Positions 10,541 through 41,800 of a stretch of DNA of 64,000 bases are shown here, piece by piece. Source of the stretch: Octopus sinensis (taxonomy: Eukaryota); NCBI RefSeq assembly GCF_006345805.1, contig NC_042997.1:101680001-101744000 (forward strand), given 5' to 3'. How positions within the stretch are numbered: position 1 is the first letter of the stretch; each line of letters begins with the position of its first letter. The notes below the pieces were generated by a model. The model saw only the letters and a list, made by a program, of their open reading frames with translations, searched no databases and was not told where the DNA came from. Position numbers and translations under genes: made by a program.

Positions 10541-13025
10541 GAGACCCCCCCCCACCTAGACTGGAAGCGATTGATTAAGAGTAATGTAGGTGAAGTAGGT
10601 GTGTGCTAGCAGGGCACAGAAGAATGAAACATAGCAAAACAGCTGTATGAACAATTGGAAAATACAACGCAAGTATGTACAAGGGAAAATGTTCAGCAAA
10701 GACAGGTGTCCAATAAAGTTAAGAAATGTAAATAGTCTGAGACAAGTTCTTCAACCAAAGAACCGATCTGCCAGAATGTGTCCTGTAAGATGAAGAATGC
10801 ATTTGTGTATTTGGTGTTTTGGTGAGTGGGGATGGTGCTTGAGGGAGTGGGGGTGGAGGTGGAATAATGGGTGTGTCAGCAAGTGGCATAAATGTTTCTG
10901 AAAAGGCTTTTTTTATTCTGTTGATAGAGACAGTCTCTTTTTTCTGTGAATGTCTATAGAGAACAGTTTCGGTGTGCTTCTAAGAACGTGATAGGGAGAT
11001 GTGAGTGGTCCTGCACGAATAACGCCTTTAAGCTTGCAGTGGAATCATTCCACCATTCTATTTGCGATGGGATGGTAACTTGTCGTGTGGATGTGCTGAA
11101 CTCCAAGCAATCTTGAAAGCTCACGGAACAGACAAGCTTCAAATTGGTGTCCATGATCAGTAGTAATTCTAGAGGGTACTCTGAAGCAAGATATCCATCC
11201 GGAGATGAGTGATCTGGTGACTGTTTCTGTGGACATGTCCATGAGAAGGATGGCATCAGGTCATCTGGAGAAACGGTTGATGCAGGTCAATATATAAGTA
11301 AATCTGCGATTGACCAGCCAAAGACCAACTAGGTCGATGTGTATGTGACGGAACCTGGTATCTGGTGGCTGGAAGTGCTCTAGATGTGCTCTCACATGAC
11401 AATGCACCTTGAAATGCTGACATGGTAGACAGACACGTGACCAAGCAGTAATAGACTGACACATGTTCAACCTGAAAAAGCGGGCTGAGATAGACTTTAC
11501 TGTGGCTGCACTGCCGGGGTGTTACAATGAATGCTGTGCATCAAAAATAGCATGACAGTGATGTTCAGGAACTAGGGGTCGGGGTGACCCTGTAGAAACA
11601 TCACAGAGAATAGTTCCTTCAGAAAAAGGCAGAGGTAGGTGTTCAAACTTGCAGCAGGAAAATTGTGAAAAGACGTCTAGAGAGTCCAAGAAGGGTTGGT
11701 CAGTAGCCATAGCAACCAAATCAATCGAAGCTGGAGATGACAACGCACCGACAGGCAGGTAAGATAAGGCATCGGCAGGGATGTTGTCAGTGCCAGCAAT
11801 GTGGCGAATGTCACTAGCGAACTGTGATATGTAGTCCAAATGCCTTGTTTCTCTGGGCGAGTACTGGTCGTTTTGGCAAAGAGAGCAAACGTTAGCAGTT
11901 TGTGGTCAGTGAAAATCATGAAATCTCTACCTTTGAAAAGATGCACTGCTAGATAAATTGCTAAGAGTTCTTTACCAAACACACTGTATCTCAGTTTGGC
12001 ATTTTCCAACAGGTGAGAAAAGAAGGCCAATAGCTGACTTCAGCTGTTGACTGATTGCTCTAAAACTGTGGCAATGGCAGATGATGACGCATTGACAGTG
12101 AGTGTCAATTTTGTATCCATAATAGGATGAGCAAGGTCAGATTTGACAGATTCAAAAGCTTGGATGACTATAGGAGATAGCGTTATCGGGGTGTCTTTTT
12201 TCGTTGATCTTTCACGAACTGAGTCAAGGGAAGCAGCTTTTCCACACAGTTAGGAATGAAATGACGATAATAATTAATTCAACCAATAAAATTTCTGAGC
12301 TGTTTTAAGGAAACAGGAGGAGACAAGCGTTAGATGGCTTCCACTTTAGAGAGAAACGGACGAATACTATCAGCATCAATGAGATGCCCCAATAATTCCA
12401 AGCTGGTAGAGCTGAATTGATCTTCACATCATAGAAACGTAGGCACTTGAATAGTTGGGTTAAATGTTGGAGATGCTGGTCTAGAGTACCATTGGCGATT
12501 AGAAGATTGTCAACATATGCGAAGACAAAATCTAACCCACGAACGACTGCGTCAATGAACCTTTGGAACGTGCTCACTGCATTGCGCAGACCAAATGGCA
12601 TAGACAAAAATTCAAACACTCCAAAAGGCATAGTGACAGCTGTCTTTGGAATGTCTTCTGAGTTGACAGGAATTTGATGGTATGCACGTACCAAGTCAAT
12701 TTTAAAAAAAAACTTGCAGCTGTGCAGGGCAGATGGAAAGTCCTGCACATTGGGTAGGGGATAATGATCCATGATAATGACAGTATTACGTCTAAAATCT
12801 CCAACCAGTTGAAAATCAGCTTCATTCTTCCTGGCCATGTGTAAAGGTGCTGCACATGGGCTTGTGGAGTGATAAATAAGGCCCAGCTGGAGCATGTGCT
12901 CGAATTCAGCCCGGGCGATCTGGAGTTTCTCTGGAGACAAACATCACAGTTGGGAAAAACTGGCGATCCCTTAGTCATGATGAAATGTCTCATGGAATGG
13001 GCTGGATTCAACGGATGAAATGACA
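10136..13025 (-). mobile_element. decayed Ty3/Gypsy LTR retrotransposon: RT-RNaseH-integrase remnants, polypurine tract and 3' LTR; 5' half missing
   Basis: Frameshifted ORFs 12305..12940 (KIDLVRAYHQIP, MPFGLRNA, YVDN for YxDD), 11677..12030 (KELLAIY, FTDHK RNase H), and 11261..11470 plus 11045..11242 (integrase core, TSYHPIANRMVE). Order is RT-RH-IN. A G-rich PPT at 10541-10558 abuts the LTR. Confidence 0.9.
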
Positions 13026-13450
13026 AATATATATATAGCGAGTAGTAGTAAATATATATATAGCGAGTAGTAATAAGTCTACTACTAATATAGGATGAAG
13101 TTTTTTTACAGAAAGACTTATTACTACTCGCTATAGGGACTGGTAACCACTATAAGCTGTAGTGGAGAACAGTTCACACGTGTGCTGAGGCTGACCACAA
13201 AAAATTTTATTTTTAGATATATCTGGGGCACTTATATGGACTCATGATTTTTGCTTCGGCTTTTTTCCATGGGCGCATGTAAGTATCTTATTTATATCCT
13301 TTCGTATTTTCTACTGAAGAGGAAAAAATCTATGATGAGATAAATTTCGAAATTAATTCAATATAGAAATAACGAACTTTAAAAAAAAAATTATTGACCG
13401 GCTTTCCTCAATTTCAGCTCTTCGTGTTTTTTCTGTAGCGAGTAAATAAT
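13026..13450. mobile_element. Penelope-like (or Helentron-like) fragment with inverted terminal copies and hammerhead-like motif
   Basis: tatagcgagtagtaataagtct (13059-13080) is inverted at 13114-13135; CTGAAGA...GAAA core at 13314-13352. Confidence 0.4.
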
Positions 13451-15027: not shown

Positions 15028-15458
15028 CTACAATTTAAAAAACAGAAATTCAATTGAAAAAAAATTTTTTTAGATCAACTGTACACAAACTTTAATTCAA
15101 AACTGACATAAAAATTGCGCATATTTGCAAATACACACACACATGCACTCTCTTAGAATATCTTAAATTTTTGATTTGTCATAACTTTACTATAGTAAAT
15201 AACTTTCATATGTTTATCAAATATCCTGTCCTTTTAAAATAAATTCTATAGATTTTAAAAAGCATTTAATAGACCCATTAAAGATATTTATAGATTTCTT
15301 TCTTTGTCATGATTCAGATATTATAGAAAGTCATACATTATATTGACAACTGAGGACAATAAAAACAGCCTTAACTAAAAAAATTCCAACTGCCATCTCT
15401 AATATTGTATAAAGGCAAATCTCACAAACTTTCTGATATGCAATATGAGAAACAACAA

Positions 15459-15526
<68 letters not shown>

Positions 15527-16197
15527 ACATAGCTACACTAACGAAATAGTTTCTTTCTGTTTTGTTTTTTCTGAGAACTTAATTCATTTAGATTTGATTC
15601 ACAGAAGGAACTGTTTCATTTATACTGTCATCTTGATTTTATTCTAATCATTATTAATTATTTTAATAATATAAAGAAAATATAATGCTTTTGAAGAATT
15701 TTTTCATAAAATCTTTTTAAAAGATGTTAATACTCTGGAGGGAGACGTAAATAACACTTTCTCTTATTCCCTTTCTTATAAGAGAATTAATGCTTATGCA
15801 AAAGGTCATTTACCGATAAGCTTCGTTCCATTATTATTGAATAAATAAGATATACAAAGACAAATAAGAATATACAGGTGCAGGCATGGTTGCACCTGTT
15901 GCTTCTCAACAATGGCGTTTTAGATTATATCCCATGGTACAGCATCTTTGGCAAGTGTCCTCTATAATACAGCACCAACCAAAGCTTTGTGACTATATTT
16001 GGTGAATGAAAGAAACTTGTCAAATCTATGTGTATGTATGAATGGCTGTGTGGTAAGTAGCTTGCTTACCAACCACATGGTTCCAGATTCAGTGCCACTG
16101 TGTGGCACCTTGGGCAAGTGTCATCTACTATAGCCTCAGGCTGACCAAAGCCTTGTGAGTGGATTTGGTAAACAGAAACTGAAAGAAGCCCGTCCTA

Positions 16198-16245
<48 letters not shown>

Positions 16246-18352
16246 CGTGTATATGTTTGTGTCTGTGTTCGTCCCCCCAACATCACTTCACAATTGATGT
16301 TGGTGTGTTTACATCCCCATAACTTAGCGGTTCGACAAAAGAGGCCAATAGAATAAGTCCTGGGGTCGATTTGCTTGACTAAAGGTGGTGCTCCAGCATT
16401 GCTGCAGTCAAATGACTGAAACAAGTAAAAGAGTAAAAGAGTATATATATATATATATGTATATATATATTTGTAAAAAATGAAGTTTGAAAATGCTGCT
16501 ATATTAGACAAATTTTAATTTTTAACATGTTTCGGTTCTTGAAATGATGAACCTTATCAAAAAAAATTATATATAATAAAGAGAGTTCATGCTATATGTT
16601 TAAAGAGTATGATGTAATAGTTCATAATTGTGACATATATTCAATAGAGTCAAATATAAAAAATTCATATATAATAAAGGGAGTCCATGCTATATGTTTA
16701 AAGAGTATGATGTAGTAGTTCATAATTGTGACATACATTCAATAGAGTCAAATATAAAAAATTCATGTTCTTGAAAATGCGAGGAGTTCATTTTAGATTT
16801 TACCTTGTGTTCCAATGGGAGCAACAGTAATGATTTTTGGTTGGTGTCTGTTCGCATAATTTTGGTGAATTTTGTGATTGTTGGGTTTATATCAGCTCAG
16901 CTAAGCTGTGGTCACTTGCACTTTTCACTGACGTCATATAGTTCCAAACCAATCAAAACCCAGTCTCAACGAATATAGTGAAAAGACTCCCAACTGTATC
17001 CTGTTAGGAAACCAACCAAGCGGAACGACAGTTTGGCCACGGAAGAAATATGTCATATTTTTTATGACGAATCGAAATTATATCTGACCCATGACTGTAT
17101 CCTGTTAGGTGGCTAGTCCAGCGGAACGAGACGTCATCAATGTTTTGACCAATCATCCTGTTAAGTTGCTAGTCCAGCAGAACGAGACGTCATCAATGTT
17201 TTGACCAATCAGAATCGGGTCTGACCCATAGCTTGACTACTGAGGTAATACGTCATCAGTTTTTTGACGAATCAGGATTAGATCTGCTCGTAGAGAAAGA
17301 GAGAGATCTTTTTATAAATTTTTCCTTCCCTAAGACATATCTCTGTCAGCGTGAGTGACTGTTTAAGGATCTGAGAAATTGTAATTCGCCCCACCTCCAT
17401 TATTATAATTCTCTCACTGAGAAGGAAAAATTTATAAAAAGATCTCTCTCTTTCTCTACGAGCAGATCTAATCCTGATTCGTCAAAAAACTGATGACGTA
17501 TTACCTCAGTGGTCAAGCTATTGTCACCCTGCTTGGTCGGTTTCCCCACACGATACAGCTATGGGTCAGACCCGATTCTGATTGGTCAAAACATTGATGA
17601 CGTCTCATTCTGCTGGACTAGCCACCTAACAGGATGATTGGTCAAAACATTGATGACGTCTCGTTCTGCTGGACTAGCCACCTAACAGGATACAGTCATG
17701 GGTCAGATATAATTTCGATTCGTCAAAAAAATGATGACGTGTTTCTTCCGTGGCCAAACTGTCGTTCCGCTTGGTTGGTTTCCTAACAGGATACAGTTGG
17801 GAGTCTTTTCACTATATTCGTTGAGACTGGGTTTTGATTGGTTTGGAACTATATGACGTCAGTGAAAAGTGCAAGTGACCACAGCTTAGCTGAGCTGATA
17901 TAAACCCAACAATCACAAAATTCACCAAAATTATGCGAACAGACACCAACCAAAAATCATTACTGTTGCTCCCATTGGAACACAAGGTAAAATCTAAAAT
18001 GAACTCCTCGCATTTTCAAGAACATGAATTTTTTATATTTGACTCTATTGAATGTATGTCACAATTATGAACTACTACATCATACTCTTTAAACATATAG
18101 CATGGACTCCCTTTATTATATATGAATTTTTTATATTTGACTCTATTGAATATATGTCACAATTATGAACTATTACATCATACTCTTTAAACATATAGCA
18201 TGAACTCTCTTTATTATATATAATTTTTTTTGATAAGGTTCGTCATTTCAAGAACCGAAACATGTTAAAAATTAAAATTTGTCTAATATAGCAGCATTTT
18301 CAAACTTCATTTTTTACAAATATATACCCACTCATATACGAGCTAATCTTAT

Positions 18353-18384
<32 letters not shown>

Positions 18385-20312
18385 ACATATATAACTAGAG
18401 CTCTATTGGTTACAGCAACAAAAGTTCCAGTTGATCTGATCAACGGAACAGTCTGCTTGTGAAATTAATGTGCAAGTAGCTGAGCACTCCACAGACATGC
18501 ATACCCTTATTGTAGTTAGTTCTCATGAAGATAAGATTGAATGAGACATAGAATATAGCAAGGCTGGCCCTTTGAATTACAGGAACTACTCATTTTCACC
18601 AGCAGAGTGAACTGGAGCAATGTGAGATGAAGTGAATTATGATTTCACTGGAGCCAAGCTGTATCAGCCTTTGCCATTCCCTTAGATAAAATTGGTGGTA
18701 TGGGGAGGGGAGACTGATGTGCATGGGTGACTTCCAGTCTCCCATAAACCTTGCCTAGACTTGTGCCTTTGAGGAGAACTTTCTAGGTGCACTCCCATGG
18801 TCATTCATGACTGATGGAGGTTTTACCCTTTTTACTATTTATTATGAGGAGGCAGGAAAATGAAAGGGAAGGTTTCATAAATTGAAGTGGGTACAGTGGC
18901 AATTTAATTCTAACTATTGCTTATATAGAGATACAGGTGGGAAGAAAGTTCTGGAAGTGTGAAAATCCTGGCAAAAATTCTTACAGAAAGCACTTATGAA
19001 AATATGCAGTGATGAGAAGAAAAGAGAAAGATATATTTAAATGAATACAGACTACGAAAAAATAAAGTGAAATAAGGAAACAAGTCTCATGTGAAAACAG
19101 TTAAGGCAATGATTACTTATTTATGCGCCCTTTTCAAGCCTAGCCAGGCCCATGGGCCCGGTTTCCCGGTTTCTGTGGCGTATGTGTTCACCCCAGCTGG
19201 ACAGGATGCCAGTCCATCACAGCAATACTCAAGAAACAGGAAGAAAGAGTGAGAGAAAGTTGGGGCAAAAGAGTACAACAGGGGTTGCCATGGAGCTTTA
19301 GGTGTTTTCGCTCAATAAACACACACAATGCCTGGTCTGAGAATTGAAACCGCGATTCTCCGATCGTGAGTCCGCTGCCCTAAACACTGGGCTAAGGCAA
19401 TGATATCCACCTTTAATTAAATAATCATTTAATGAAGTAGTCTAAGGTGGTGAATCAGTCGAGTCATAATAGCATTGATAGAATGCTGTATAGTATATGT
19501 TCCAGCTTTCTGCGCACTGAGTTCAAAACCCACCAAGATCTTTTCAGGGTTGATAAAAAAGTGTCAATTTAAGGTGTTGGATTAAACTGTTAGAGAATTG
19601 GGCAAACTGTTTTGCAATATGTGTCTGAGCTCTTGGGAATCTGACAGCAGCACCTGTGACACTGATTTCAGGCTGTGTCAGCTGAAGTCAACGACTTTTC
19701 CATTGGATAAATGTTGGAGCCATAGAGAGAGGTGTGACTTGTGTGCATGGGCAACTGCCAGTTTTCTTCAAAATATCTTGCCCAGATTTGTGCATGCATG
19801 TGCAGATGTATGAACAGCTTTGACAAACAGCTGCCTCTCTGGAAATGGATGCACTAGGTTGGTATGTCAACCCTATCTGATCAAATATACTTCATAAATC
19901 ACATTTATAATCTGTTATTATTCAATAGTCTTGATTATCTATTACAGAGACATTCATAACATATGAAACAAAATAAATATCAACTTCATGCTTTCCTCTT
20001 ATATCATATATACATGCATCTAAACTTACTTGGAAATGGATGCATCATGTTCAATTAAATACTAACAAATAATATATATGTATATATATATATATATATA
20101 AAGTTAATCCAAACAATAAAGCACAAAAAACACAATAATGCGAGGACGTGGAACAAATATAGTATTATTGGACGCTCAGGAAAGAAGGAAAGAAGGAGGG
20201 TTTAATGTTTCGAGCGGAGCTCTTCGTCGGAAACATAGAAGGAAAGATCCAGAGAAGGGAAGACAGAAGAACAAAATAAATTGCCAATGGTACACACGCG
20301 GTCACATTTTGA

Positions 20313-20380
<68 letters not shown>

Positions 20381-23300
20381 GCATATATGGGTACAGGATG
20401 TCACCAACAGTGCAATCAACATGAAATACGTAAACAAACAAGTTAAATACGTAAACAACAAAATGGAAAACAGGACAAGTAAACACAGAGAAAGTTCTGA
20501 ACCTTTCCAACTTCATATATCTGACATGTGGGTGAGAGAAAAGAAAGATATAAATGGCAAAATGCCAAACTAAATAGAATCTGACAACAAATTAATGATT
20601 TACAATACCAAGTTCAAACTCTCTCAAGTGAGGATGAATGAATCCTCCTATACATAGGAAACAATGGTCTAAATATACATAAAGGGAAATATCAATTTCT
20701 AGAGAAATATCAATTTCTATATTGGCCACAACTTACCTTAAATAAAGCCAAAGACTGAGCTTTGCTTACTATCAAGTGAGAAACCAATTTGGCTAAATTT
20801 GACATCATCATTTCTGTTAAACTGGGCATGTCTTTCAATTTATCCCACAAATTAAATTGAAATGTCATCTACACAAAAAAGTAGCAGCAAATTAAAACAT
20901 AACAGAATTCATTCGATCTAATTTTTAAAATGTTACATTATTACATATAAAATAATATTACATCTATTTTCTCACTGTTTTATGAGTCCCTTGGAAAAGG
21001 AAAAGGCTAGGAGAGTCAGCCTTGACAGCAAATCAAGGAGTGGGGTCCCGCAGGCAGCTCAGAGCCCTCTTTGATACCCTGCTAGCAACTCCAGGGTAGA
21101 TGACCCTCTTGAGCCCTCTAAGCAATTCACCAATCCAATGTAAAAACCTATAGCTTGCTGGTCACTGCAGCCATCTTAGCCCACTGAACCACTGTGGTCA
21201 GACCTCCACTCACTGAGCCACTGGGGTTAGACCTCCCACCTACTGAGCCACTGTGGTCAGCCCCCCACCCACTGAGGTCAGACCTCCCTTACTGAGCCAC
21301 CGTGGCCAGACTTCTACCCACTGAGCCACTGAGGTCAGACTGCCAAGTCTAAAGAGTGAGATCACATTATGCAAACTGATTCACAAACTACCTAGCACAA
21401 GTAGGAGGAAAAGTCCTGAAGTGTCAAGGATTGGTTTACATAGCCACTTCTGCTGCTTTTCCGCATGATCTGCAGACACAAAGAAACTGCTGTTATTATA
21501 TCTACTTTAACCATTTCCCATTTAGACCAAAGATATCTGACTCAAATAGTCTGTCTGTTTTCTATTCAAACTAGCCATGTCAAACTCCCCAAAGGTACCC
21601 TACAATGTCATTGTAAAATTAAACAATCACATCACTGAAATCTCAAAGCTACAAGATAATGCATGGTTAATGCAAAACAATGTGTCTTTATGTCTTCATA
21701 AAAACTATATATTTGAATATCTTCATGAAATTTTACAGAAAAATTCATTCTTATTAAAAGCTGTTATTCTGGTTTTTGAGATAACAATGTATTTATATTA
21801 ACTTTGCAGTCTAAGCATCGAGGCTGATGACAACAGTAAGCTAAAACGAGAAATGAATATGGAAATATATGTTTAAACAGTCCTATTAAATAGTACTAAA
21901 GCTCCAATTGCTACAGACATAAAATTTATAGACAGATGTCATAAACTGAATTTTCAAACAGACAGGAATTTATTTATCAATTAAGATAGAACATAAGATA
22001 GTTACAAAAATTAGGCACGTAGTTCAAAGATTACAATCAAATTTACATTAGTTTTACAGACTAAGGTTTCGAGTTAATGATGACTGCTTGCTAAAATTAT
22101 AAAAATTTTCAAATATTTCTTTCAATGGAAAGCATGTGTTGAAACAGTCCTTTCAAAATTGTACCTAAGGCCCCAGATCCATAGAAATGAATCATCATCA
22201 TTATTGTCATCATCGTTTTATGTCTGCTTTTCATGCTAGCATGGGTTGGATGAGTCAGAAGACATCTCAGTGAGATGTTTAATGTTTTCGGCTTGATTTC
22301 TAAGGCAAGATGCCTTTCAAAACACCACCACTCTACAGAGTGTACTGGGTGCATTTTATCATGACAATAAAATTCATACTCAGAAATATTCAAATTTTTT
22401 TTTTTTCTCTAGTTTCAGCTCAAAGCTGCGGCCATGCTGATGCACTGCCGTTTTGGTGAAAGCGTACAGCAGGGATCGCCACCCCCTGCCGGAGCATCGT
22501 GGAGCTTTTTAGGTGTTTTCACTCTATAAACACTCACAATGCCCGGCCTGGGAATCGAAACCGCGATCCTACGACTCCACTGCCCTAACCACTGGGCCAT
22601 TGCGCCTCCACACATTTCTATTCATTAAATTTAAGATATTGAATAAATATTTTAAAGCATTTAATTCATATTTAATAAACAATTCAAAACACAGGGAAAA
22701 TATCATGCATTGTTTTTATTAGTATACAATAATAAAATTAATTGTCTGAGAAAAAGAGAGTATAGCTATGTCAATAACGTCAATAAATTATAGATGAAAA
22801 GATAAATTACCTGAAAACGTCTGTGGAATTCACAGAACTTCTGAAGAAGGTGTGCATAGTAAGGATTGTACTCTTTTTCTTGAATGCAACAGTCAACAAT
22901 AACATGAATTATATCCCTTTCTTGTACTGGTTTTAGTTTGAGTTTAAGAAGTCTTTCAAAGGCATCAACAAAATCCTGAAGTCAAATAAACTGAATGGTT
23001 GAGCTTGCTGGATAATTAAGAACACAGCATGCAACAATTTTAATGCAACTAAAAGTTATGCTAATGAATAAAACATTGGTGTAATATCTTTCTCGTCTAG
23101 ATTCAGTATTACAAACAGTAGCAGAAGGACTTCCAGACCAACATTTCCAACTAAGTAATTGTCATCTCATTTTTATGATCTGAAGCCATTATTTTCTACA
23201 GGTTCTTTCTTATTTCTTTACTGTCCACAAGGGGCTACACACAGAGGGGACAAACAAGGACAGACAAACGGATTAAGTCAATTATATCAACCCCAGTGTG

Positions 23301-26300: not shown

Positions 26301-29300
26301 TTATGATGAGTACTCTTTATATCCTATATCTTAACAGCTCAATAAACAGTGATTGATAAAATATGTACCTAATTGAATTAAGTACTGGACTCAATGACTG
26401 ATTAAAATCCCTTAAAGTGGTTTCCAAACATAAGTTCAAATCCTGAAAGCAATAAAAGAATTAAGAAGGCTCATAAACATTAGACAAACCTCACTAGCCA
26501 TTAGAGTATAGAATATATTTCTTCGGATATCTGTATTCATACGTTGCTTCCTTGACAATTCTAGAAAATTTTTGACTTCTTCACTTCCTGTTGGAATTGA
26601 CTCTTCATCAGCTTCTAGGGAGATATAAGAGAGAAAAAATGTTTTAATAGTGGTTTCAAATTTTGGGTCAAAGCCAACAATTTTAGGAGTAAGTCGACTG
26701 GTATTCAACTGGTACTTATTTTATTGACCCTGAAAGGATGAAACGCAAAGTAGACCTAAGCAGAACTTGAACTCAGAATGTAAGGATGAATGAAATGTCA
26801 CTAAGCATTTTGCATGACATATAACAATTCTGCCAGATCACTGCCTTAAGATGTTTTAGTATTTCAAGCTATTATCCTTCTGTTTCAGATTAACAGGCAA
26901 TTTACTTTTATTACATTAATCCTTTTGCTACCGACCTGCCTGAGACTATGGTATAGATTCCCAGATTTAAAGTGATTTAAATGATAACTCCACCTTAAAA
27001 TTTCATGCTAATTTATATTCCAAATATCAGGTTAAAAATGACAAACTTATTTTACTATATTCTTCATTAGTTCTGAAACTAACTGAAAGAAAAACAGTGC
27101 ATTTCAACAGAAATATAAGAAATATAACAACTTCAAACATTGGTTTCTTTCTGACAAAAGTCCAAAGATTATGTATTTTAGGGAAATTAAGCATGATTCA
27201 GATGTATTAATATATGATTTTTTCCAAAGGCATTAATGGCCTTAAATGAAACAAAATGATTTCAATTTGGAAGTGAATTGCATTGTGGACTCAGCTGAGA
27301 GCTTAACATCAATCTTACCACAAAAGTTTGTAAATATTGAAACTATAGTTTGTACATTTAAAAAAAACTATGTTCTACAGTAAAAAATTCATCATTATCA
27401 TGGATTAAATGAAATTATGTGAGGCAGATTTTCTAGTCAGCTATCCTCCCTGTCACCAAACATTACTTTTCCAAGCAAAGTATTATTTTCCCATAGCTAG
27501 ACATGTTTTTCACAGAAGACTAGAAAAGAACAACCTAACTTATGATGATCAATGATGAGCAATGATGCTCATTTACAACCATCATGTGATTTCCTAACAG
27601 GGGTACATACACACACACATTCAAACGATTCTTTCAGTTTCCATCAACCACATCTACTCACAAGGCTTTTGTTGGTCCCAAACTATAGTAGAAGACACTT
27701 GCCCAAAGTACTATGCAGTGGGATTTTTTGTTTGTTCCTTCTCGAGCCATGCCTGGTTCATAAAGGCCAGTTTCCTGGTTTCAATGTTGTATAGGTTCCC
27801 CACCTGGACGGGACGCCGGTTCGTCGCAGGTGAGCTGCATGATGCAGGAGGAAAGAGTTAGAGAAAGTTGTGGCAAAAGAGTCAGCAGAAGTTTGCCATT
27901 ACCTTCTGCTGGAACCACGTGGAGCTTAGGTGTTTCGCTCATAAACACACACATCGCCTGACTTGAGATTCGAACCCGCGATCCCTCGATCGCGAGTCCA
28001 CTGCTCTAACCACTAGGCCATGTGCTTCCACATGCAGTGGGATCAAACCTAATTCAACATGATTAGGAAGCAAACTTCATTACCTCACTGCTATGCCGGT
28101 CCAAAATTTAACCAAATATGTTTGAAAGCTGAGTCAAGAGAGACAAACAAGTGTATGAAGCTTAATTAGTTTTCTAATAACTGTTGTAACCAAACGATGT
28201 AAAACAAACAGAATAGTGAGAGAGGACCAAAACTAATGAAAAATTGACATCTAAATTTCTTATACTAGTATGTAGTTGTTTGGCGCAAAATAGGTTAAGT
28301 GTTAAACAACTGGCTGAAAGTTCAAATTTGTATTGTGTTACTAATAGTACTGGTGCACTACTGTGGCAACTGCAAATGCACTTGACCTTAGACAGCCAAT
28401 GCCTTCCACCTGTTGAATAAAAATATGATTCATTACTGCTATATACTCAGGGCTAAGATCTTTGAAAAATGAAAAAAAAAACAAGTAGAATAAGTTATTA
28501 CATATAGATGTGGAGAGGGATAGGCATATTAGTAAATAAACAATGAGAAGAAAATGATAGTTAAAGTTTTATTAGTAGGCTAAAGCTCATAACTAGTTAA
28601 GCAGTTATAAGGTCAAGCAGACACTTATTCACATCAGGTTGAAGCAAACCTCAAAAATCACTAAAACATTATTGCATAGCTTTAACTGCACAATAAAAAC
28701 ATATGTATGTGTGTGAGCACAAAAACAAAGCATGAAAGGGACAATGTATTATGTATCTATATATATACGCGGTCTGATCAATAAGTATAAAGACTGTTGC
28801 GATAGTAACAAAGTTAAAGCACGCAGAGTGAAGCCACTTAGCACAAATTGACCTTGAACTCTGCTGTACATGTGCACTAAGTTTTAATGTTCTAGCTAAC
28901 TTCTGCTGTTTGCAGCAGTGCTTGGAAAGAATGTGTGTAGCTGTTATTGACCATGAATCTGCATCAAATTTTGCCAAAAGCTTGGCGATATCTGTTCAGA
29001 GGCCTATGCAGAAAGTGTATGGAGAGGAGTGTATGAGCTGAAAAAATGCCAATAGTGATAAACATTCTGGGAGACCTGCAACCAACAGAACTGAGAAAAA
29101 CATCGCAGATATGCATGCAGCTGTGAGGGGAAATTGTTGAATCAGCATCTGTGAGTTATTACAGAATGTGCAGATTAATTACAGTTCAGTCCATTATCAC
29201 TGAAGGTTTGGGTATGAGACTTGTGTCTGCCAAATTTGTGCCAAAACTGCTTTCAATTGATAATGCACCTACCCATTCAGTGCAGCTTGTGCAGCAGTTT

Positions 29301-32300
29301 CTGGTTAGGCACAGCATTCCCCAGGTCCAACAGACACTGTATTTTGCAGATCTTGCCCTTCTGACTTTTTCCTCTTTCCAAAAATCAAACCCTGCTTGAA
29401 AGGGAGATTTCATGACTTGAAGGAAATCAAAGTGAATGCGATGAGGCAGCTGCTGATCATCCCAGAAAACAAATTCCTGGAATGCTTCCATCAATAGAAA
29501 CAACACTGGATTAAGTGTGTGGCTTCTGAAGAGGACTACTTTGAAGGAGATTAAATGCCAAACTGATACGTATTGTAGTTTTGCTTTTATAAGACCAGTC
29601 CAGATACTTATTGATTAAGTCTTGTATCTATATACACACATACATACATACATACATAGATAATGTCATAAAAATGGACAAATTGATTATCTGGTATTGC
29701 TACAATAGTTTCATTATGAGTCTTTATTGTGACATAAACATGGTATAGTCAGGTATGCAGTATGCACAACATCCATACGATTATGTCATATGTTACCTAA
29801 GTCTCAACTCATCAGGCTTATCAAATAAACAACTGACCAATAACATGTTGTTTAAGTAACAGAACATCATCATTATCATCACCATCATTTAATATCTATC
29901 TGGCATGGGTACCAAGGGAAATTTGTAATCAGAACAACTAAGATTTAAGAAATGTAAAATGGCTATGACTACAATCTCTCAATCATAAGGTTGTCAATTA
30001 AAAAATGGTTACAAACAATTCTATTCTAAAGAGGACAATAAATTTAGTAATTTCATTCACAAAGACTGGTAAATAGCAGGTGCCAAACCATTTACTGCAT
30101 TATATTATTTATTACATTAAGGAGTGACATTGTTAATAAATTCCTGTATTACTTATTCATTTATGTAATTCATCTTGAATAAAGTGCTTCAATTAATTAT
30201 TGCAGAACTAATAGAATATTGACTTCAAATTTTGACACAAGGCCAGCAATTTGAGGGAGGGGGGTACGTCAACTGCATTGACCCCAGTACTCAACTGGTA
30301 CTTATTTTATCAATCCCAAAAGGATGAAAAGCAAAGTCAACCTTGGCGCAATTTGAACTCAGAACCTGAAGACGGACGAAATGCCTCTAAGCATTTCGCC
30401 CAACATGCTAACAATTCTGCCAGCTCGCTGCCTTAGAACTAATAGAATATTAGCTTTAATTAGTGGAGATCCAGCTAATTCAGGGAGAATAGCTTAGTAA
30501 AACCATAGGTTAGCAAAGGTCTCTGCTAAATTTCAGAGAAGGGGGAATGAAAAGGAAGTGCCAGTAAACATAACATGTAAATGCTTAACTAGAAACAAAA
30601 TATGATAGAGCAAATAGAGAAAGTGGTCAACACATTGACAGGAAAACAATACTGGCATTAAGAAATAAATATGCATCCTAAACTGAGGAAAATAGCATAA
30701 GCATTAATAGGCACAAGTGTGGCTGTGTGATAAGAAGCTTGCTTCCTAGCCACATGGCTCTAGGTTCAGTCCCACTGCATGCCACCTTGGACAAGTGTCT
30801 TCTACTATAGCCTCAGTGCCACCAAAGCCCTGTGAGTGGATTTGGTAGACAGAAACTGAAAGAAGCCTGATATGTGTGTGTGTGTGTGTGTGTGTCTTTG
30901 TCCCCCACCACTGTTTGACAACTAGTATTGGTGTGTTAATATCCCCATAAGTTAGCATTAAAAAATATTAAGTACTGAGATCAGTTCATTCAACTGAAAA
31001 TTCAAGGTGGTGCTCCAGTATGGCTGCAGACTGAAGCAAGTAAAAGATAAAAGATAATAATCACTGTCAACATAAATTTATAAATTTATATTAGTATAGA
31101 GATCAGTTATTTAGCTATAAAGAAGTCACAAGCTACACATGGTTATTTAACTAGAAACTGTTGCCACTGCTTATAGTTGCATATGGAGTAAAAGACAAGA
31201 CAAGATGAAATGCCAGAAATAATAGAGAAAGCAAAACAGAACAGATATTCGTGATAAAATAAAATTTCTAAAAAAACCATGACTTTATGTTTTTTATCGA
31301 CCAATATTGTCACAATATTATTATAAGTAAAGCAGATCTATCAAAAAATCATATAGGTCCAGTAGATAGTTGAATTACTACTATAATAATTTTAAATTAT
31401 TGTAATAAGAAAATGTTAAAAGAGATAAGAATTATAAAGAATTATGAAAGCTATAAATGTTAAATAATGTTAAAAGAATTTACAAGAGTATAACAAATAG
31501 TAAAGAAGAATTAATGTCCATAACTAAGGAGGATGAAGTAAGCATTATAAAGATATCACCTAGGCTAGAAGCAAACTGAATAAAGTCGTTAAATTAAATT
31601 ATATAAATTATAGATTATATGAAATGACAGTCACAGCTATTTGTCATTAGAACTAAGGATAAGTTTAAATATGATCAGTTATATGTATAACAGCATTAAG
31701 ACATGCTAGACCAGTTCTACTCAAAATGGTGATCCGCGAGTCATCAGCAGCCAGTACATGGCGAGTTTCCAAAAAAGAAAGAAACATAAAATGCTTATGT
31801 AATATTGTATTATTTGTTTACAAAATAAATAAAGACAAAAAAAATTGTCAACTTTTATTATATTCGTTATATATATTGTTTCCAGTATAAATTAATATTA
31901 CTAAGAAATATTACCGGTCTCTGGCACATTAGAAAAAAAAAACTGCCAGTGAGAAGCACTGTGCTAGGCTACCTAAATATAATCCATGAATCTTATCACT
32001 AGTAATTAGGCTCTATATCATAGGATTATAGACACATATCTAGCACTTGGGGAAAACTTTATAGAATCAGTTTAAAGTATAAAAAAGTTCAATGGATAGA
32101 ATGTGGACATTTGATCCTTAATTTATCTGATCTATTAATTATTTGGCCTGCACATTTAAAAATTTCTAGCAATTCAAAACAGCAGAGATTGCAACTACAT
32201 CTATCACTGACATTAGATGAAAATCAATGTTTTTGTCTAAGTCCAAACTTTCATGGAGAGTGATGCTTTTGCTTTATCTCTCCTTTGTAATGTATGAAGT

Positions 32301-35126: not shown

Positions 35127-38100
35127 CAATAAATTTCATATATTCCAAAAATATGTTGCTTTAATAATTTGATTTTTAATTCTTCCTCAGTAAGAGAAAG
35201 TATAATTTATAATCTATTAAACTGAAAATAACAAAGTTTAGAAGTTTTCAATGTCTTAAGTTGATAAAGCTGATCCAGTTAGTGAGATTGAAAGGATATT
35301 TATGTAAGTGGTAGGACTAAGAACATTATAGCTGTACAATCTTCCCATTATTAACCACTCAGTTATGAAATGTAAACAGAATCTTTTCTTAACTATTCAA
35401 CCAATTTTACATAGCTATTGCTGTTTTATTCATTTGTTTCCTTTTCTGTTTGTTGTGGTAAGATGATCTTTCTACATGAACTTTAGACTATTTGTCAAGA
35501 GTCTCAATACTCAGGAAATGAAATAATATGTGAAGCAGGAAATTAAAAGTTTAGTTAAGTTTAGATATTGATGGCTACAATAAAGTCAGTTAGAAGTTAC
35601 GCAAGTATAAATGAAAAAGGATAAAATTATTAAAATTGTAGGACAAAGAAAATTCAAGAAAATGTACATTTATATAATCAAAATCAAGGAAGACACAATG
35701 GAATACTGTACATCTCCTACATCAGGGATAACACTACTGTTAAACATATAAATGTCCCAGACATTTAAGAGAAAGCTATTCAATTGATTTCCAAAGATTC
35801 AATGATGAGAACACAACAACCTCTAGCTCACTGATGCTCTGCCACCTTCTCAGAACAAACTAGAAATAATTGCATATCACCCCAGCACATCTATTCTTCC
35901 TCTTGTCACCTGTACTCCACCAATTTTGCACTAACCACAATTACCAATTCTTCCTCTGTAAAATTTCCTTCCCTCTTCCAATTCTTCCTCTGAAATTTCC
36001 TTCCCTCTTAACTTTTTCTACAAATGTCAACATTCAGACACTTAAGATACCTATCTCACCAGTTATGGACGAAAGGCAAAGTCAACCTCAGCGGTATTTT
36101 AACTCAGAACATAAAGAGTTAGAAGAAATGCCACAAAGCATTTTGCCTAATACACTAATGATTGTGCCAGCTTGCTACAATTACCCGTGCTAGCGTGGAA
36201 AACGGACGTTAAACGATGATGATGAATTCAAATAATAAAAGTAGTTAATTACTTCGAATTAAATGCTTGGCTAATTTTGTAAAACGCTGTAACAGTTCAA
36301 ATCTTTCTTGGTGATCTCCTTTATAAACATTGTTGTTTTTAACAGCCAGAAGAGTATCAAGAATAAACCGCATCCGTCCTGGTTCCTCAAAATTGTCGAT
36401 ATTGACAGTGCTAGATTTTTGCTGAATACATGAAATTACCTCCCTTAGCTGTGTAGGGTCGTCCTTACGCAATCCAAAGCCACAATCTATAAAGAGAAGA
36501 GAAAATCATAAAATAAGCAAAAATATTCAACAAACGAAATCATGATTATTTCTTGGTTTAAGAATTGATACAAACAATAACAATATATCTTAACAATAGC
36601 CACAGTCATGGATATGGAGTTAAGAGATTTGCATTGGAATTACATGGTTCCAGGTTTGAGCCCACTGCATGATGCAGGAGGAAAGAGTTAGAGAAAGTTG
36701 TGGCAAAAGAGTCAGCAGAAGTTCGCCATTACCTTCTGCTGGAGCTGCGTGGAGCTTAGGTGTTTCGCTCATAAACACACACATCACTTGGCTTGAGATT
36801 CGAACCCGTGATCCCTCAATCGCGAGTCCACTGCTCTAACCACTAGGCCATGTGCCTCCACATGCAGTGGGGTTAAACCTAATTCAACATGATTAGGAAG
36901 CAAACTTCATTACCTCACTGCTATGCCGGTCCAAAATTTAACCAAATATGTTTGATAGCTGAGTCAAGAGAGACAAACAAGTGTATGAAGCTTAATTAGT
37001 TTTCTAATAACTGTTGTAACCAAACGATGTAAAACAAACAGAATAGTGAGAGAGGACCAAAACTAATGAAAAATTGACATCTAAATTTCTTATACTAGTA
37101 TGTAGTTGTTTGGCGCAAAATAGGTTAAGTGTTAAACAACTGGCTGAAAGTTCAAAAATTTGTATTGTGTTACTAATAGTACTGGTGCACTACTGTGGCA
37201 ACTGCAAATGCACTTGACCTTAGACAGCCAATGCCTTCCACCTGTTGAATAAAAATATGATTCATTACTGCTATATACTCAGGGCTAAGATCTTTGAAAA
37301 ACAAAAAAAAAAAAAAAGTAGAATAAGTTATTACATATAGATGTGGAGAGGGATAGGCATATTAGTAAATAAACAATGAGAAGAAAATGATAGTTAAGGT
37401 TTTATTAGTAGGCTAAAGCTCATAACTAGTTAAGCAGTTATAAGGTCAAGCAGACACTTATTCACATCAGGTTGAAGCAAACCTCAAAAATCACTAGAAC
37501 ATTATTGCATAGCTTTAACTGCACAATAAAAACATATGTATGTGTGTGTGTGTATTAAGAAGGCAATGAGCACAAAAACAAAGCATGAAAGGGACAATCT
37601 ATTATGTATCTATATATATATGCGGTCTGATCAATAAGTATCCAGACTGTTGCGATAGTAACAAAGTTAAAGCACGCAGAGTGAAGCCACTTAGCACAAA
37701 TTGACCTTGAACTCTGCTGTACATGTGCACTAAGTTTTAATGTTCTAGCTAACTTCTGCTGTTTGCAGCAGTGCTTGGAAAGAATGTGTGTAGCTGTTAT
37801 TGTCACCGTAGCCAATACCGCATCGACTGGCCTCCATGCTGTGGGCACGTAACAAACAACATCCGAGCGTGGCCGTTCGCCAGTGGCACATAAAAACACC
37901 ATCCGAGTGTGGCCGTCTGCCAGCCTCGTCTGGCACCTGTGTCGGTGGCACATAAAATCACCCACTACACTCTCGGAGTGGTTGGCGTTAGGAAGGGCAT
38001 CCAGCTGTAGAAACACTGCCAGATCTGACTGGCCTGGTGCAGCCTTCGAGCTTGCCAGACCCCAGTTGAACCGTCCAACCCATGCTAGCATGGAAAGCGG

Positions 38101-38818
38101 ACGTTAAACGATGATGATGATGATGATGACCATGAATCTGCATCAAATTTTGCCAAAAGCTTGGCGATATCTGTTCAGAGGCCTATGCAGAAAGTGTATG
38201 GAGAGGAGTGTATGAGCTGAAAAAATGCCAATAGTGATAAACATTCTGGGAGACCTGCAACCAACAGAACTGAGAAAAACATCGCAGATATGCATGCAGC
38301 TGTGAGGGGAAATTGTTGAATCAGCATCTGTGAGTTATCACAGAATGTGCAGATTAATTACAGTTCAGTCCATTTACACTGAAGGTTTGGGTATGAGACT
38401 TGTGTCTGCCAAATTTGTGCCAAAACTGCTTTCAATTGACAATGCACCTACCCATTCAGTGCAGCTTGTGCAGCAGTTTCTGGTTAGGCACAGCATTCCC
38501 CAGGTCCAACAGACACTGTATTTTGCAGATCTTGCCCTTCTGACTTTTTCCTCTTTCCAAAAATCAAACCCTGCTTGAAAGGGAGATTTCATGACTTGAA
38601 GGAAATCAAAGTGAATGCGATGAGGCAGCTGCTGATCATCCCAGAAAACAAATTCCTGGAATGCTTCCATCAATGGAAACAACACTGGATTAAGTGTGTG
38701 GCTTCTGAAGAGGACTACTTTGAAGGAGATTAAATGCCAAACTGATACGTATTGTAGTTTTGCTTTTATAAGACCAGTCCAGATACTTATTGATTAAATC
38801 TTGTATCTATATACCTAT

Positions 38819-38849
<31 letters not shown>

Positions 38850-41800
38850 TATATATATATAATGTCATAAAAATAGACAAATTGATTATCTGGTATTGCT
38901 ACAATAGTTTCATTATGAGTCTTTATTGTGACATAAACATGGTATAGTCAGGTATGCAGTATGCACAACATCCATACGATTATGTCATATGTTACCTAAG
39001 TCTCAACTCATCAGGCTTATCAAATAAACAACTCACCAATGACATGTTGTTTAAGTAACAGAACATCATCATCACCATCATTTAATATCTGTCCACCACC
39101 ACTGGCAAGAATCTTTTGCTGACTAATCTTTTCTGAGTAAAATTTAGTAGACAAAACCTGCATGGAAGCTTATCAACATTATCACTATTCAACATCCATT
39201 TTCCATGGTAGCATGGGTGGGGGATTCAATAGGAGCTGGCAGGCCAACAGACTGTGTCAAGCTCCAATGTCTGCTTTGGCATGGTTTCTATAGGTGGATG
39301 CCCTTCCTACACAAACATTTTACAGAGGGTAATTTTTAAATGCCACCAGTACCATCATATATATATATATATATATACAGTACATTTGATATTTTGTTCG
39401 TTTTTATGTTCATTTTCTGATACTAGCACAAGTTAGATGAATTTTAACAGCTCTTCCGGTCACTAGTCCTCATCTGTTTTCCAAATAAGGGACCTCTTAT
39501 CCCATTATCTTTGAAACTGCAGACGATTTCCTCACAGAAAATGACGACAAACTTTATTACTTATAGTTCAGTACAATTTTCATGTAAAGTGTGCAGGATG
39601 TAAATATTCACACAGACACACACATGTATTGAGTGTGCATGCATGTGTGTGTGTTTCTGGGTGCTGTCACACTGACACTGCTTCACCAACTGTGGGGTTT
39701 TAAGTCATTTAACACAGAAGTTCGACATACAAAGACCATGGAAACAAAGTATCTTTCTAGAAAAACAACTAAGGGTTGCTACCAGGAAGGGAGTATCTGG
39801 CCACCGAACACTGATTCAAGAAGTCTCATCCAAATCAGAGTGGTAAAAGCCAATGTGAAAACAATGTAAATATTTTAACATTTTCCCTGCATATACAAGC
39901 TGCAAGGCCTAGTGGTTAGAGTGCTGTACTTATGATTGTAAGATTATGGTTTTGATTGCCATACTAGGTAACGCATTATATTTTTGTGCAAAACACTTCA
40001 TTTCATGTTGTTATAGGATCATGTTGATATCTGATTTGTAACACATTGTACAAATGTTCAGGCAACATCAATTTTGAGTGAATTTGGTAAATAGAAAACA
40101 AAAGAAGTTCATCATATATATGAGGCTATTTACACTTGCTCTAAGAAAATAGCAATGTATATATAGGGGGTTGTTGTTAGTTCTCTTGCAACAAATCATC
40201 CATTTGCTTCACATCTTTGAAGCCACATGGAATAGGAGAGCCTTTATTTGAAGAAAGGTTAAAGGTTAGTAATAGGAAGGGCATCAGGCTGTAAAACAAT
40301 GGGTCAATAACATATTCATATAATGCATGCAAACAAGAGAAAACAGATCTAAAATGAATGAGGGGTGTATTTTAAAACCAATGTGACAGTATCTATGTAA
40401 ATGCTCAACCAACTCAATGAAAAAAAACAAGTCTCTTTCAACAAACTTTGCATAGTCTATATAACCACATTTTTTTTTCTTTTGCAATTATAATTAAACA
40501 AATGGACAGCAGCAGCTAGTTTACAAGCAAAACTCAAAAGAATATGTGCAAGGTGCTGAGTCAGTGTAGACTTAAAATAAAGCTGACTCATGTTACTCAA
40601 CAATATGGAATACAATAATAATAATAATGCAATAATATTGATTTCTTTAACTAGATACAAGGCTAAATTTTTCAAAGAGATGGATGAATCATTCTTTGTA
40701 CTTAACTCCTTATTTTATAAAGTGTGAGGGGATGAAGGATAAAGTTGGCCCCAAACAGAGAATTTTAAATGAAGGAAGTAAATATTATGAAGTTTCACAA
40801 ATTATTATTTTTGTCAACTCACCACCTTACAACACACTAACAATCCTTTCTGCTATAGGCACAAGACCTGAATTTTGTTGGGAGGGACCTACTCAATTTC
40901 ATTGACCCCTGTACTTGACTGGTACTTATTCTACCAACCCCAAAGGGATGAAAAGCAAAGTCAACCTCATTGGAATTTGAACAAAGCTAATATAATAGTG
41001 GAATGTAGTAATGTAATGAGTCAGAAGACTTCATCCAGGTTTCATGTAGTTAATATAAGTCACAGTTCCTGTAGCTTAATTAAACTAATTATCATCATCA
41101 TCATCATTGATTTAATGTCTACTTTTCCATGGTTGCATTGGTCCGACAGAATTTACTGAGGCAGATTTTTCTATAGCCAGATGTGTCCTATTGCCAACCC
41201 TTATTTGTGTCAAGGGAAAGCTAATATTTCCCTATGGTCAAACACATTTTCACAGAAGATTGGAAATGGATAACATTCACTTACAACATTATAAAATGTC
41301 AGGACAAGGAGATACAAACATACACACCCTCATACACATGCATGCGCACGCACACACATCATCGTTTAAAGTCCACTTTCCATGCTAGCATGGGTTGGAC
41401 GATTTGACTGAGGGCTGGCGAACCAGATGGCTGTACCAGGCTCCAATCTTGATGCCCTTCCTAACGCTAACCACTCCCAGAATGTAGTGGGTGCTTTTGC
41501 GTGCCACCGGCATGGGGGGGCCAGTGAGGCGGTACTGGCAACGACCTCGCTTGAATCTTTTTACACATGCCACCGGCACAGGTGCCAGTAAGGCGATGCT
41601 GGTAACAATCACGCTCGAATGGTGCCTTTTACATGCCACCGGCACGGAAGCTAGTTTACTGCTCTGGCAACGATCATGCTCAGATGATGCTTTTAGCACC
41701 CTACCAGCATGGGGCACAAGTACCAGTAAATACATATGTATATCATTATCATCATCATCCTTTAATGTCTGTTTTCCATGCTGGCATGGGTTGGATGGTT

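What the first reader, a model, noticed from the sequence alone, without database searches (positions are those of the whole stretch)
16464..18358. 1.86-kb, ~99% perfect palindromic element with modular arms in the last NOM1 intron: candidate undescribed foldback / long-TIR element targeting (TA)n
Seen: arms 16464-17328 (865 bp) and 17421-18326 (906 bp) are reverse complements around a 92-bp unique spacer, with no ORF. They differ by about ten substitutions and one 41-bp indel bounded by an AGCTAT direct repeat (17516/17557). Each arm has an AT-rich outer zone with a 98-bp tandem duplication and an inner zone of short repeated modules. Both ends abut (TA)n. The right end has an extra 32 bp (18327-18358) that could have been lost on the left by TATATATTT microhomology. 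Established: long, internally repetitive TIRs characterise Foldback/Galileo, some Mutator-like elements and Polintons/Mavericks, and also viral ITRs. Inference: this is an internally deleted, non-autonomous derivative of a long-TIR element that inserts into (TA)n. I see no AG-initial Polinton terminus or 9-bp MULE TSD, so the family may be unclassified.
Basis: partly seen in the sequence, partly recalled or inferred. Interest (0 to 1): 0.82.

Follow-up and report, generated by a model that had tools for sequence, protein, structure and literature searches.

The report
Fold-back Penelope-like retroelement insertion, octopus
The 1.9-kb palindrome in an octopus NOM1 intron is real and belongs to an abundant repeat family, and it is most likely the usual head-to-head leftover of a Penelope-like retrotransposon insertion (a hammerhead-ribozyme motif in each arm, a 32-base tail on one end only), not a new DNA transposon.

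Summary
The palindrome is as described: arms 16464-17328 and 17421-18326, 11 substitutions, one 41-bp indel, a 92-bp spacer, (TA)n on both sides, in the last coding intron of NOM1. The long-TIR DNA-transposon reading is not supported. Each arm carries, 60 nt from its outer end, a minimal type I hammerhead motif with the U3-A8 core described for Penelope-like elements (PLEs). These are the only two hits in 64 kb, and 1 of 2000 simulated arms gave any hit. The 32 bp at the right end match the 30-40-bp tail that PLEs carry at one end only; head-to-head arms and (TA)n targets are also described PLE features. In three runs, contig depth over arm and spacer is tens to thousands of times the single-copy flank and rises towards the 3' end, so the spacer is not unique. 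No RT or endonuclease sequence was found, so the clade is open. It is not the published octopus Naiad (by-eye comparison). Verdict: a probably uncatalogued octopus member of a known kind, of modest interest.

The parts
15028..20733 (-). Host context: last coding intron of NOM1 (nucleolar MIF4G domain protein 1)
   Evidence: tblastn of P0003 (Octopus vulgaris NOM1-like, 99% identical to exon 53872-54081) places exons at 20868-20734 and 15027-14755
16442..16469 (.). Left (TA)n target, directly after an older dispersed repeat (16040-16440)
16464..17328 (-). Left arm: inverted copy of the element's 3' end, without tail, with a 41-bp deletion; sense on the minus strand
   Evidence: the 41 bp align with the paralogous 101-bp module, so the left arm lost them
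16519..16565 (-). Minimal type I hammerhead motif of the left arm (sense in NOM1 pre-mRNA)
   Evidence: its one difference from the right copy lies in loop II
16560..16766 (.). 98-bp tandem duplication in the AT-rich outer zone (mirror at 18024-18229)
16929..17318 (+). Inner zone: 56-101-bp modules with CRE-like (ACGTCA) and CCAAT motifs, then a TATA-like box at 17313, all facing the spacer; promoter function inferred only
   Evidence: ACGTCATC occurs 7 times in the element and 0 times in the other 62,105 bp, both strands
17329..17420 (+). 92-bp spacer; multi-copy in the genome, likely the next stretch of element body upstream of the right arm
   Evidence: depth at 17388 is 96, 100 and 139 times the single-copy flank in X15, X2, X17
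17421..18326 (+). Right arm: 3' end of the element in sense orientation (3' UTR / pseudo-LTR)
17430..17443 (+). 14-mer complementary (13 of 14) to the end of the tail (18346-18359), 9 nt from the inversion point
   Evidence: 1 of 2064 genomic 60-nt windows scored as well; noticed post hoc
18225..18271 (+). Minimal type I hammerhead motif: U3-A8 core 18230-18236, 5-bp helix II with 10-nt loop, GAA, palindromic helix III 18260-18265, predicted cut after 18266, 5-bp A-U helix I
   Evidence: variant described in PMC4209133
18327..18358 (+). 32-bp one-sided extension, interpreted as the PLE tail
   Evidence: 30-40-bp tail at one end only in PMC8557442, 31-bp tail in PMC3846280; presence in other copies not resolved (skipped 18343-18396)
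18359..18393 (.). Right (TA)n target

Best explanation
This is most likely a 5'-truncated insertion of an endonuclease-bearing Penelope-like retroelement (PLE), in which about 1 kb of the element's non-coding 3' end (spacer, right arm, 32-bp tail) was joined head-to-head to an inverted, tail-less copy of the same end (left arm) inside a (TA)n run. Shown: the palindrome, a PLE-type hammerhead motif in each arm, the one-sided 32 bp, (TA)n flanks, a large family with depth rising to the 3' end. Inferred from PLE biology: a GIY-YIG nickase and reverse transcriptase encoded by an autonomous copy elsewhere cut the (TA)n and copied the RNA, and the inverted arm was made during or around integration by fold-back or template switching, which would explain why both arms share a letter nearly absent from the family. 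The copy encodes nothing and is likely a dead end. The clade is undetermined; a (TA)n-targeting, hammerhead-bearing clade (Neptune- or Hydra-like) is likelier than Naiad.
For: (1) Own descriptor scan: hammerhead topology at +18230 and -16560, the only 2 sites on both strands of 64 kb. Null: 1 of 2000 simulated arms had any hit and 0 of 2000 had a palindromic helix III; 0.05 hits per simulated 64 kb over 20 simulations. (2) The U3-A8 core, short helix I, palindromic helix III and pairs of motifs on opposite strands are described for metazoan PLEs (PMC4209133). (3) An inverted 5'-truncated copy, a 30-40-bp tail at one end only and (TA)n preference in Naiad, Neptune and Hydra (PMC8557442); a 31-bp tail and head-to-head arrangement (PMC3846280). 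(4) 20 of 24 listed runs, in 9 studies, hold the arm or part of it. Summed contig depth relative to the single-copy flank goes from about 30-250x at the inner end to about 2,000-5,300x in the last bin; Spearman 0.67-0.75 in 3 of 3 runs. (5) 14 contigs in X15 leave the arm at 18326 into pure (TA)n, as tail-less inverted arms would. (6) No substitution at 5% or more is listed across the hammerhead despite deep coverage, only 1-2-nt indels at 18265-18267. (7) The A at 18012 is mirrored in the left arm but makes up 51 of 10,958, 0 of 12,991 and 0 of 1,206 depth units in the three runs.
Against: No RT or GIY-YIG sequence was found in or linked to the element (empty or spurious). Rfam gave no hammerhead hit; the motif rests on my own descriptor, written after I saw the site. 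It lacks the extra base between positions 9 and 10.1 that is usual in metazoan PLE motifs, and its helix I is all A-U (two-helix fold -4.5 kcal/mol; z -1.5). The tail was not shown in other copies, because the read tool skipped 18343-18396. Summed contig depth is not a copy number, and a rise towards the terminus is also expected for MITE families. The arms (about 900 bp) are longer than the roughly 200-bp pLTRs described in PMC3846280. Ten of 11 substitutions sit in the inner 280 bp, which one copying event does not explain by itself. The raw-read run X23 laid 0 reads, so the junctions have no read-level check.
Confidence: 0.88

Rival explanations
1. A non-autonomous foldback DNA transposon with long modular TIRs that targets (TA)n (like Tc6, Galileo or MuTAnT).
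For: The architecture exists in such families (passages). Arm depth of roughly 250-500x against spacer depth of 100-140x would fit two arms per spacer. TA, 4-bp or 6-bp duplications are formally possible at the core boundaries.
Against: It explains neither a hammerhead motif at a fixed distance from each end nor a 32-bp one-sided extension. With core boundaries no 3-, 5-, 7-, 8- or 9-bp duplication fits, and TGT...ACA ends give no duplication. No transposase link was found.
Confidence: 0.05
2. The palindrome as a whole is a self-expressing non-autonomous PLE unit: the inward-facing CRE/CCAAT/TATA array of one arm transcribes the spacer and the opposite arm in sense, and that RNA is mobilised in trans, so that many copies share this spacer and junction.
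For: The spacer is at about 100-140x. The motif array faces the spacer. The tail end is complementary to a 14-mer 9 nt from the junction. Non-autonomous PLE derivatives are described.
Against: No strand-change joint at the spacer appears among the 15 joints listed (12 more not shown). Spacer depth is equally explained by element body. No RNA data were examined. TATA-to-initiator spacing is 35 nt on the left and about 16 nt on the right, neither typical (typical spacing recalled).
Confidence: 0.12
3. A non-autonomous derivative of a DIRS1-like tyrosine-recombinase retrotransposon, with inverted terminal repeats and the 32 bp as the right extension (rE).
For: DIRS1-like elements have inverted termini, an rE of 9-75 bp and NTT ends (PMC3266345); this element starts with TTT.
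Against: The internal complementary region, which should match the left start and the rE almost fully over 85-130 bp, is absent: the best match is 13-16 nt. DIRS ITRs are 66-316 bp. The hammerhead is not explained.
Confidence: 0.02
4. An assembly fold-back artefact or a one-off local inversion of host DNA.
For: Long palindromes can be made by long-read fold-back (recalled); no read spanning the junctions was seen, and X23 gave no test.
Against: The arms differ by 11 substitutions and a 41-bp microhomology-bounded deletion; different flanks continue on both sides with NOM1 exons in order; the arm is highly multi-copy.
Confidence: 0.02

Closest known systems
Insertion units of endonuclease-positive Penelope-like elements, e.g. 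Pen2a_Av of Adineta vaga (PMC3846280) and the scheme in Craig et al. 2021 (PMC8557442)
   Same: Head-to-head inverted copy at the 5' side; 30-40-bp tail at one end only; hammerhead motif near the 3' end; 5' truncation; AT-rich or (TA)n targets; TATA readable both ways; microhomology-bounded deletions.
   Different: No ORF remnant here. The mirrored part is about 900 bp with CRE/CCAAT modules and a 98-bp duplication, against about 200-bp pLTRs in A. vaga. Clade not determined.
Minimal type I hammerheads of metazoan PLEs, U3-A8 variant (Cervera and de la Pena 2014, PMC4209133)
   Same: U3-A8 covariation, G10.1-C11.1 pair, 5-bp helix I, palindromic helix III, two motifs on opposite strands.
   Different: No extra base between 9 and 10.1; helix II is 5 bp rather than 7-8; the two motifs are 1.7 kb apart rather than 100-700 bp; cleavage untested.
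Naiad_Ovul and Naiad_Obim, the published octopus PLEs (PMC8557442 supplement)
   Same: Octopus, (TA)n preference, long AT-rich 3' UTR; Naiad_Obim also has ACGTCA motifs at the start of its 3' UTR and an internal duplication.
   Different: No shared sequence seen on reading their 3' ends by eye, and four short motifs from this element were not found in them by text search. Naiad_Ovul is annotated as no pLTR, half hammerhead core, and cephalopod Naiads are described as long-inactive remnants, whereas this copy has 99.8% identical outer arms.
Animal non-LTR retrozymes (bioRxiv 10.64898/2026.07.22.740005)
   Same: Non-coding, type I hammerhead, PLE-derived.
   Different: Retrozymes are head-to-tail tandem units with a hammerhead in each; here the two motifs are head-to-head on opposite strands.
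Foldback DNA elements: Tc6, Galileo (P superfamily), MuTAnT (Mutator-like, TA-targeting)
   Same: Long, internally repetitive inverted arms around a short spacer; MuTAnT also sits in (TA)n.
   Different: Symmetric ends, transposase partners and 7-9-bp or TA duplications; no hammerhead and no one-sided tail.

Membership tests
EN+ Penelope-like elements | PLE-type reverse transcriptase with a GIY-YIG endonuclease | not testable with these tools
   The copy is non-coding and no octopus assembly was held. Peptides from spacer and arm found nothing.
EN+ Penelope-like elements | Minimal type I hammerhead motif near the 3' end | tested here: met
   Own descriptor: 2 hits in 64 kb, both in the arms; null 1 of 2000. 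No Rfam hit.
EN+ Penelope-like elements | Inverted 5'-truncated copy joined head-to-head | tested here: met
   Motif polarity puts both 3' ends outward.
EN+ Penelope-like elements | 30-40-bp tail at one end only | tested here: inconclusive
   A 32-bp one-sided extension is present here; tail-less ends run into (TA)n in 14 contigs; the tail in other copies was not resolved.
EN+ Penelope-like elements | Frequent 5' truncation (copy number highest at the 3' end) | tested here: met
   Depth rises towards the 3' end in 3 of 3 contig runs; the measure is coarse.
Neptune / Hydra / Naiad clades of PLE | (TA)n insertion preference | tested here: met
   Both flanks here, and 14 contigs in X15 with (TA)n after 18326. 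Only one run showed this among the listed loose ends; 694 were not shown.
Naiad | N-terminal EN, CxC motif; no canonical hammerhead | tested here: inconclusive
   Protein features not testable. A hammerhead is present, but of a core type (U3-A8) that the core-string search quoted would miss. No likeness to the published octopus Naiads.
DIRS1-like | Internal complementary region matching the left start and the right extension | tested here: not met
   Best match 13-16 nt against 85-130 nt expected.
Mutator/Foldback, Galileo/P, hAT, Harbinger | Target duplication of 9, 7-8, 8 or 3 bp | tested here: inconclusive
   Not met with the core boundaries; formally possible only if the 32 bp are counted as element, and then uninformative inside (TA)n. 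Sizes other than Galileo's are recalled.
Polinton/Maverick | AG-initial termini (recalled) | tested here: not met
   Ends read TTTG...CAAA; a 6-bp TATATA duplication is formally possible.
Crypton (CryptonV targets microsatellites) | No terminal inverted repeats; short direct repeats; tyrosine recombinase | tested here: not met
   PMC3212892 describes Cryptons as lacking TIRs; this element is almost all inverted repeat. The CryptonV description itself was not readable (only cited).

The most novel reading that the evidence does not exclude
An uncatalogued, recently active octopus PLE lineage whose 900-bp end works as a built-in fold-back device. The tail end pairs with a 14-mer beside the inversion point and so fixes where the mirror arm is made, and the inward-facing CRE/CCAAT/TATA array of the mirror arm then transcribes the spacer, sense arm, hammerhead and tail. 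The palindrome would thus be a self-expressing non-autonomous unit, and a natural test of the antisense-promoter/self-priming model of PLE replication.
Probability: 0.12. Interest if true: 0.6.

Novelty: new member of a known kind. Interest (0 to 1): 0.27.

Why it matters
It reclassifies an apparent new DNA-transposon family as a known retroelement product, and gives a simple flag for such cases: a hammerhead near each outer end plus a one-sided tail. It suggests that octopus has a young, abundant hammerhead-bearing PLE family besides the old Naiads in print. With hundreds to thousands of copies, the family would let one map inversion points and tail use across copies, which bears on the open question of how PLEs make inverted arms. 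In NOM1 pre-mRNA the copy is predicted to form an 865-bp duplex, a possible substrate for A-to-I editing or small-RNA processing (inference, untested).

Tried and rejected
No whole genome was held, so no genome-wide BLAST. Exact-pattern scans found nothing: tail pattern in metagenome and viral contigs, terminus pattern in both, module pattern in viral contigs. No other copy of the arm in the window. The minus-strand spacer ORF (P0001) as the start of an autonomous protein: no hit; one hit at E 5.5e-4 was a repetitive 750-aa protein with no Pfam family and was rejected. The plus-strand spacer frame read with X at its stop (P0005): no hit. Pfam on three short frames: only a sub-threshold MraZ match. 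Rfam: only sub-threshold matches, mostly to (TA)n. The raw-read run X23 laid 0 of 12.9 million records, flank repeats included, so it is no test. Crypton, DIRS1, Ginger-type ends and Polinton were considered and dropped. A full-text search for four short motifs of the element found 0 papers. Topic searches found no description of this family; Repbase and Dfam could not be searched, so absence from them is not shown. One review on transposon structure was not held. Earlier-findings look-ups by sequence, place and foldback words were empty.

Full report
Observation. The palindrome is real. Aligning the left arm to the reverse complement of the right gives 16464-17328 against 17421-18326 with 11 substitutions and one 41-bp gap bounded by a 6-bp direct repeat. 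Each arm holds a 98-bp and a 56-bp tandem pair. (TA)n runs lie at 16442-16469 and 18359-18393, and 18327-18358 has no mirror. The longest stop-to-stop frame is 67 codons. An exon at 53872-54081 is 99% identical to an Octopus vulgaris NOM1-like protein, and tblastn with it puts the element between the last two coding exons, gene on the minus strand. The differences are uneven: 1 in the outer 585 bp, 10 in the inner 280 bp (binomial p about 1e-4). The 41 bp align with a paralogous module, so the left arm lost them.

It is a family. No genome was held, so I used public runs. Twenty of 24 listed runs, from 9 studies, hold the right arm or part of it, 7 of them half the words or more. I laid 4 runs on 17329-19120. 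The raw-read run X23 laid nothing and is no test. In the three contig runs the flank 18829-19120 behaves as single copy (depth about 42, 52 and 4). Relative to it, the spacer position 17388 is at 96, 100 and 139 times, most mid-arm positions at about 100-500 times (range 20-771), and the last arm bin at about 4,000, 2,000 and 5,300 times. The tool warns that summed contig depth is not a copy number, so these are orders of magnitude. They still show that the spacer is not unique and that abundance rises towards the outer end (Spearman 0.75, 0.68, 0.67). In X15, 14 contigs leave the arm at 18326 into pure (TA)n. The tool skipped 18343-18396 and showed only 18 loose ends (694 more not shown), so whether other copies carry the 32 bp is unresolved.

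On the plus strand at 18225-18271 the right arm reads as a minimal type I hammerhead: a 5-bp A-U helix I, a core with U3 and A8, a 5-bp helix II closed by G-C with a 10-nt loop, GAA, a palindromic 6-nt helix III and a predicted cut after 18266. A descriptor allowing either core found exactly two sites on both strands of the 64 kb, +18230 and its mirror -16560. One of 2000 simulated arms gave any hit and none had the palindromic helix III; simulated 64-kb windows gave 0.05 hits each over 20 runs. I wrote the descriptor after seeing the site, and Rfam did not detect it. The U3-A8 core, short helix I, palindromic helix III and pairs of motifs on opposite strands are described for metazoan PLEs and tied to truncated copies (PMC4209133; parts 1-2 of 4 read). 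The motif here lacks the extra base between 9 and 10.1 that is usual there. The only outer-arm substitution falls in loop II. Across the motif one search lists no substitution at 5% or more, only small indels at 18265-18267.

What that makes it. Craig et al. describe PLE insertions as 5'-truncated, often with an inverted truncated copy at the 5' side and a 30-40-bp tail at one end only, and report (TA)n preference in Naiad, Neptune and Hydra clades (PMC8557442; abstract, passages, sections 11 and 15, supplement searches and part 24 of 59). Arkhipova et al. describe a 31-bp tail, head-to-head inversion and a TATA readable both ways (PMC3846280; passages and Discussion). Here the hammerhead polarity puts both 3' ends outward, the 32 bp sit on the sense arm only, tail-less ends meet (TA)n, and depth climbs to the 3' end. 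I therefore read it as a truncated PLE insertion: spacer, right arm and tail are the last 1 kb of the element; the left arm is the inverted copy.

Mechanism: shown and inferred. Shown are the anatomy, the motifs, the abundance and the target. Inferred from PLE biology: an autonomous copy supplied the GIY-YIG nickase and reverse transcriptase, (TA)n was nicked and primed copying, and the second arm arose by fold-back or template switching. One result fits arms copied from one template: the A at 18012 is mirrored in the left arm, yet is 51 of 10,958, 0 of 12,991 and 0 of 1,206 depth units in the three runs. That also hints that the insertion is young or polymorphic, though contigs drop rare variants. 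Against a single clean event, the inner 280 bp carry 10 substitutions and the deletion, mostly on the left where module paralogues give polarity. A second template or error-prone repair near the loop would account for that; neither is tested. The hammerhead is predicted to be nearly inactive as a monomer and would be paired with its antisense copy in NOM1 pre-mRNA.

Rivals. A foldback DNA transposon has the same outline: Tc6, Galileo, MuTAnT (passages or first part read). It explains neither the hammerheads nor the one-sided tail, and with the core boundaries only 2-, 4- or 6-bp duplications fit. DIRS1-like elements have a right extension but need an internal complementary region of 85-130 bp (PMC3266345, passages); the best match here is 13-16 nt. 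Cryptons lack TIRs (PMC3212892, passages); CryptonV microsatellite targeting was seen only as a cited statement. An assembly artefact is unlikely given arm differences, distinct flanks and abundance, though no junction-spanning read was seen.

What is missing. No RT or endonuclease could be linked: searches with short frames from spacer and arm were empty or spurious. Membership in PLEs therefore rests on non-coding features, and the clade is open. The published octopus Naiads showed no shared sequence by eye or by short-motif search and are described as old remnants. I found no paper on this family. Repbase and Dfam were not searchable, and the supplements of the bioRxiv preprint (parts 1-2 of 5 of its text read) were not seen. 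Earlier notes of this scan on other genomes reached the same kind of reading for smaller palindromes; they are unchecked and came after my own tests.

A bolder reading. The inner zone is rich in CRE-like and CCAAT motifs followed by a TATA-like box, all facing the spacer. The end of the tail is complementary at 13 of 14 bases to a site 9 nt from the inversion point, a score reached by 1 of 2064 genomic windows (post hoc). If many copies share this junction, the palindrome could be a self-expressing non-autonomous unit and a test case for the antisense self-priming model. I give that about 0.12.

Verdict. Observation confirmed; interpretation partly supported; most likely a fold-back PLE insertion (0.88). 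New member of a known kind; interest 0.27.

Noticed in passing
window 27835-29900 and 36665-39093: A 2.1-kb stretch is duplicated at about 96% identity in two NOM1 introns; the second copy has about 325 bp inserted at 37803-38126.
   Followed up: no
window 11522-13149, minus strand: Decayed retroelement with a reverse-transcriptase domain (Pfam RVT_1, E 4e-18 at 12305-12940), LTR-retrotransposon-like by its translation.
   Followed up: partly
window 52016-52777, plus strand: Fragment of a non-LTR retrotransposon (weak RVT_1 match).
   Followed up: partly
window 17430-17443 and 18346-18359: The end of the tail is complementary at 13 of 14 bases to a site 9 nt inside the inversion point; 1 of 2064 genomic windows scored as well.
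   Followed up: partly
window 18012 and mirror 16778: Both arms share a base that is nearly absent from the family in three runs, hinting at co-templated arms and a young or polymorphic insertion.
   Followed up: partly
window 17460-17800: Other copies join the inner modules differently (joints 17519 to 17769 and 17603 to 17760 in X17), so module number and order vary within the family.
   Followed up: no
window 16040-16440 and 18409-18828: Both flanks are older, very abundant dispersed repeats (up to about 1e6 summed depth on the right); the element sits in the (TA)n between them.
   Followed up: partly
window 47707-48120: 207-bp tandem duplication at about 82% identity.
   Followed up: no
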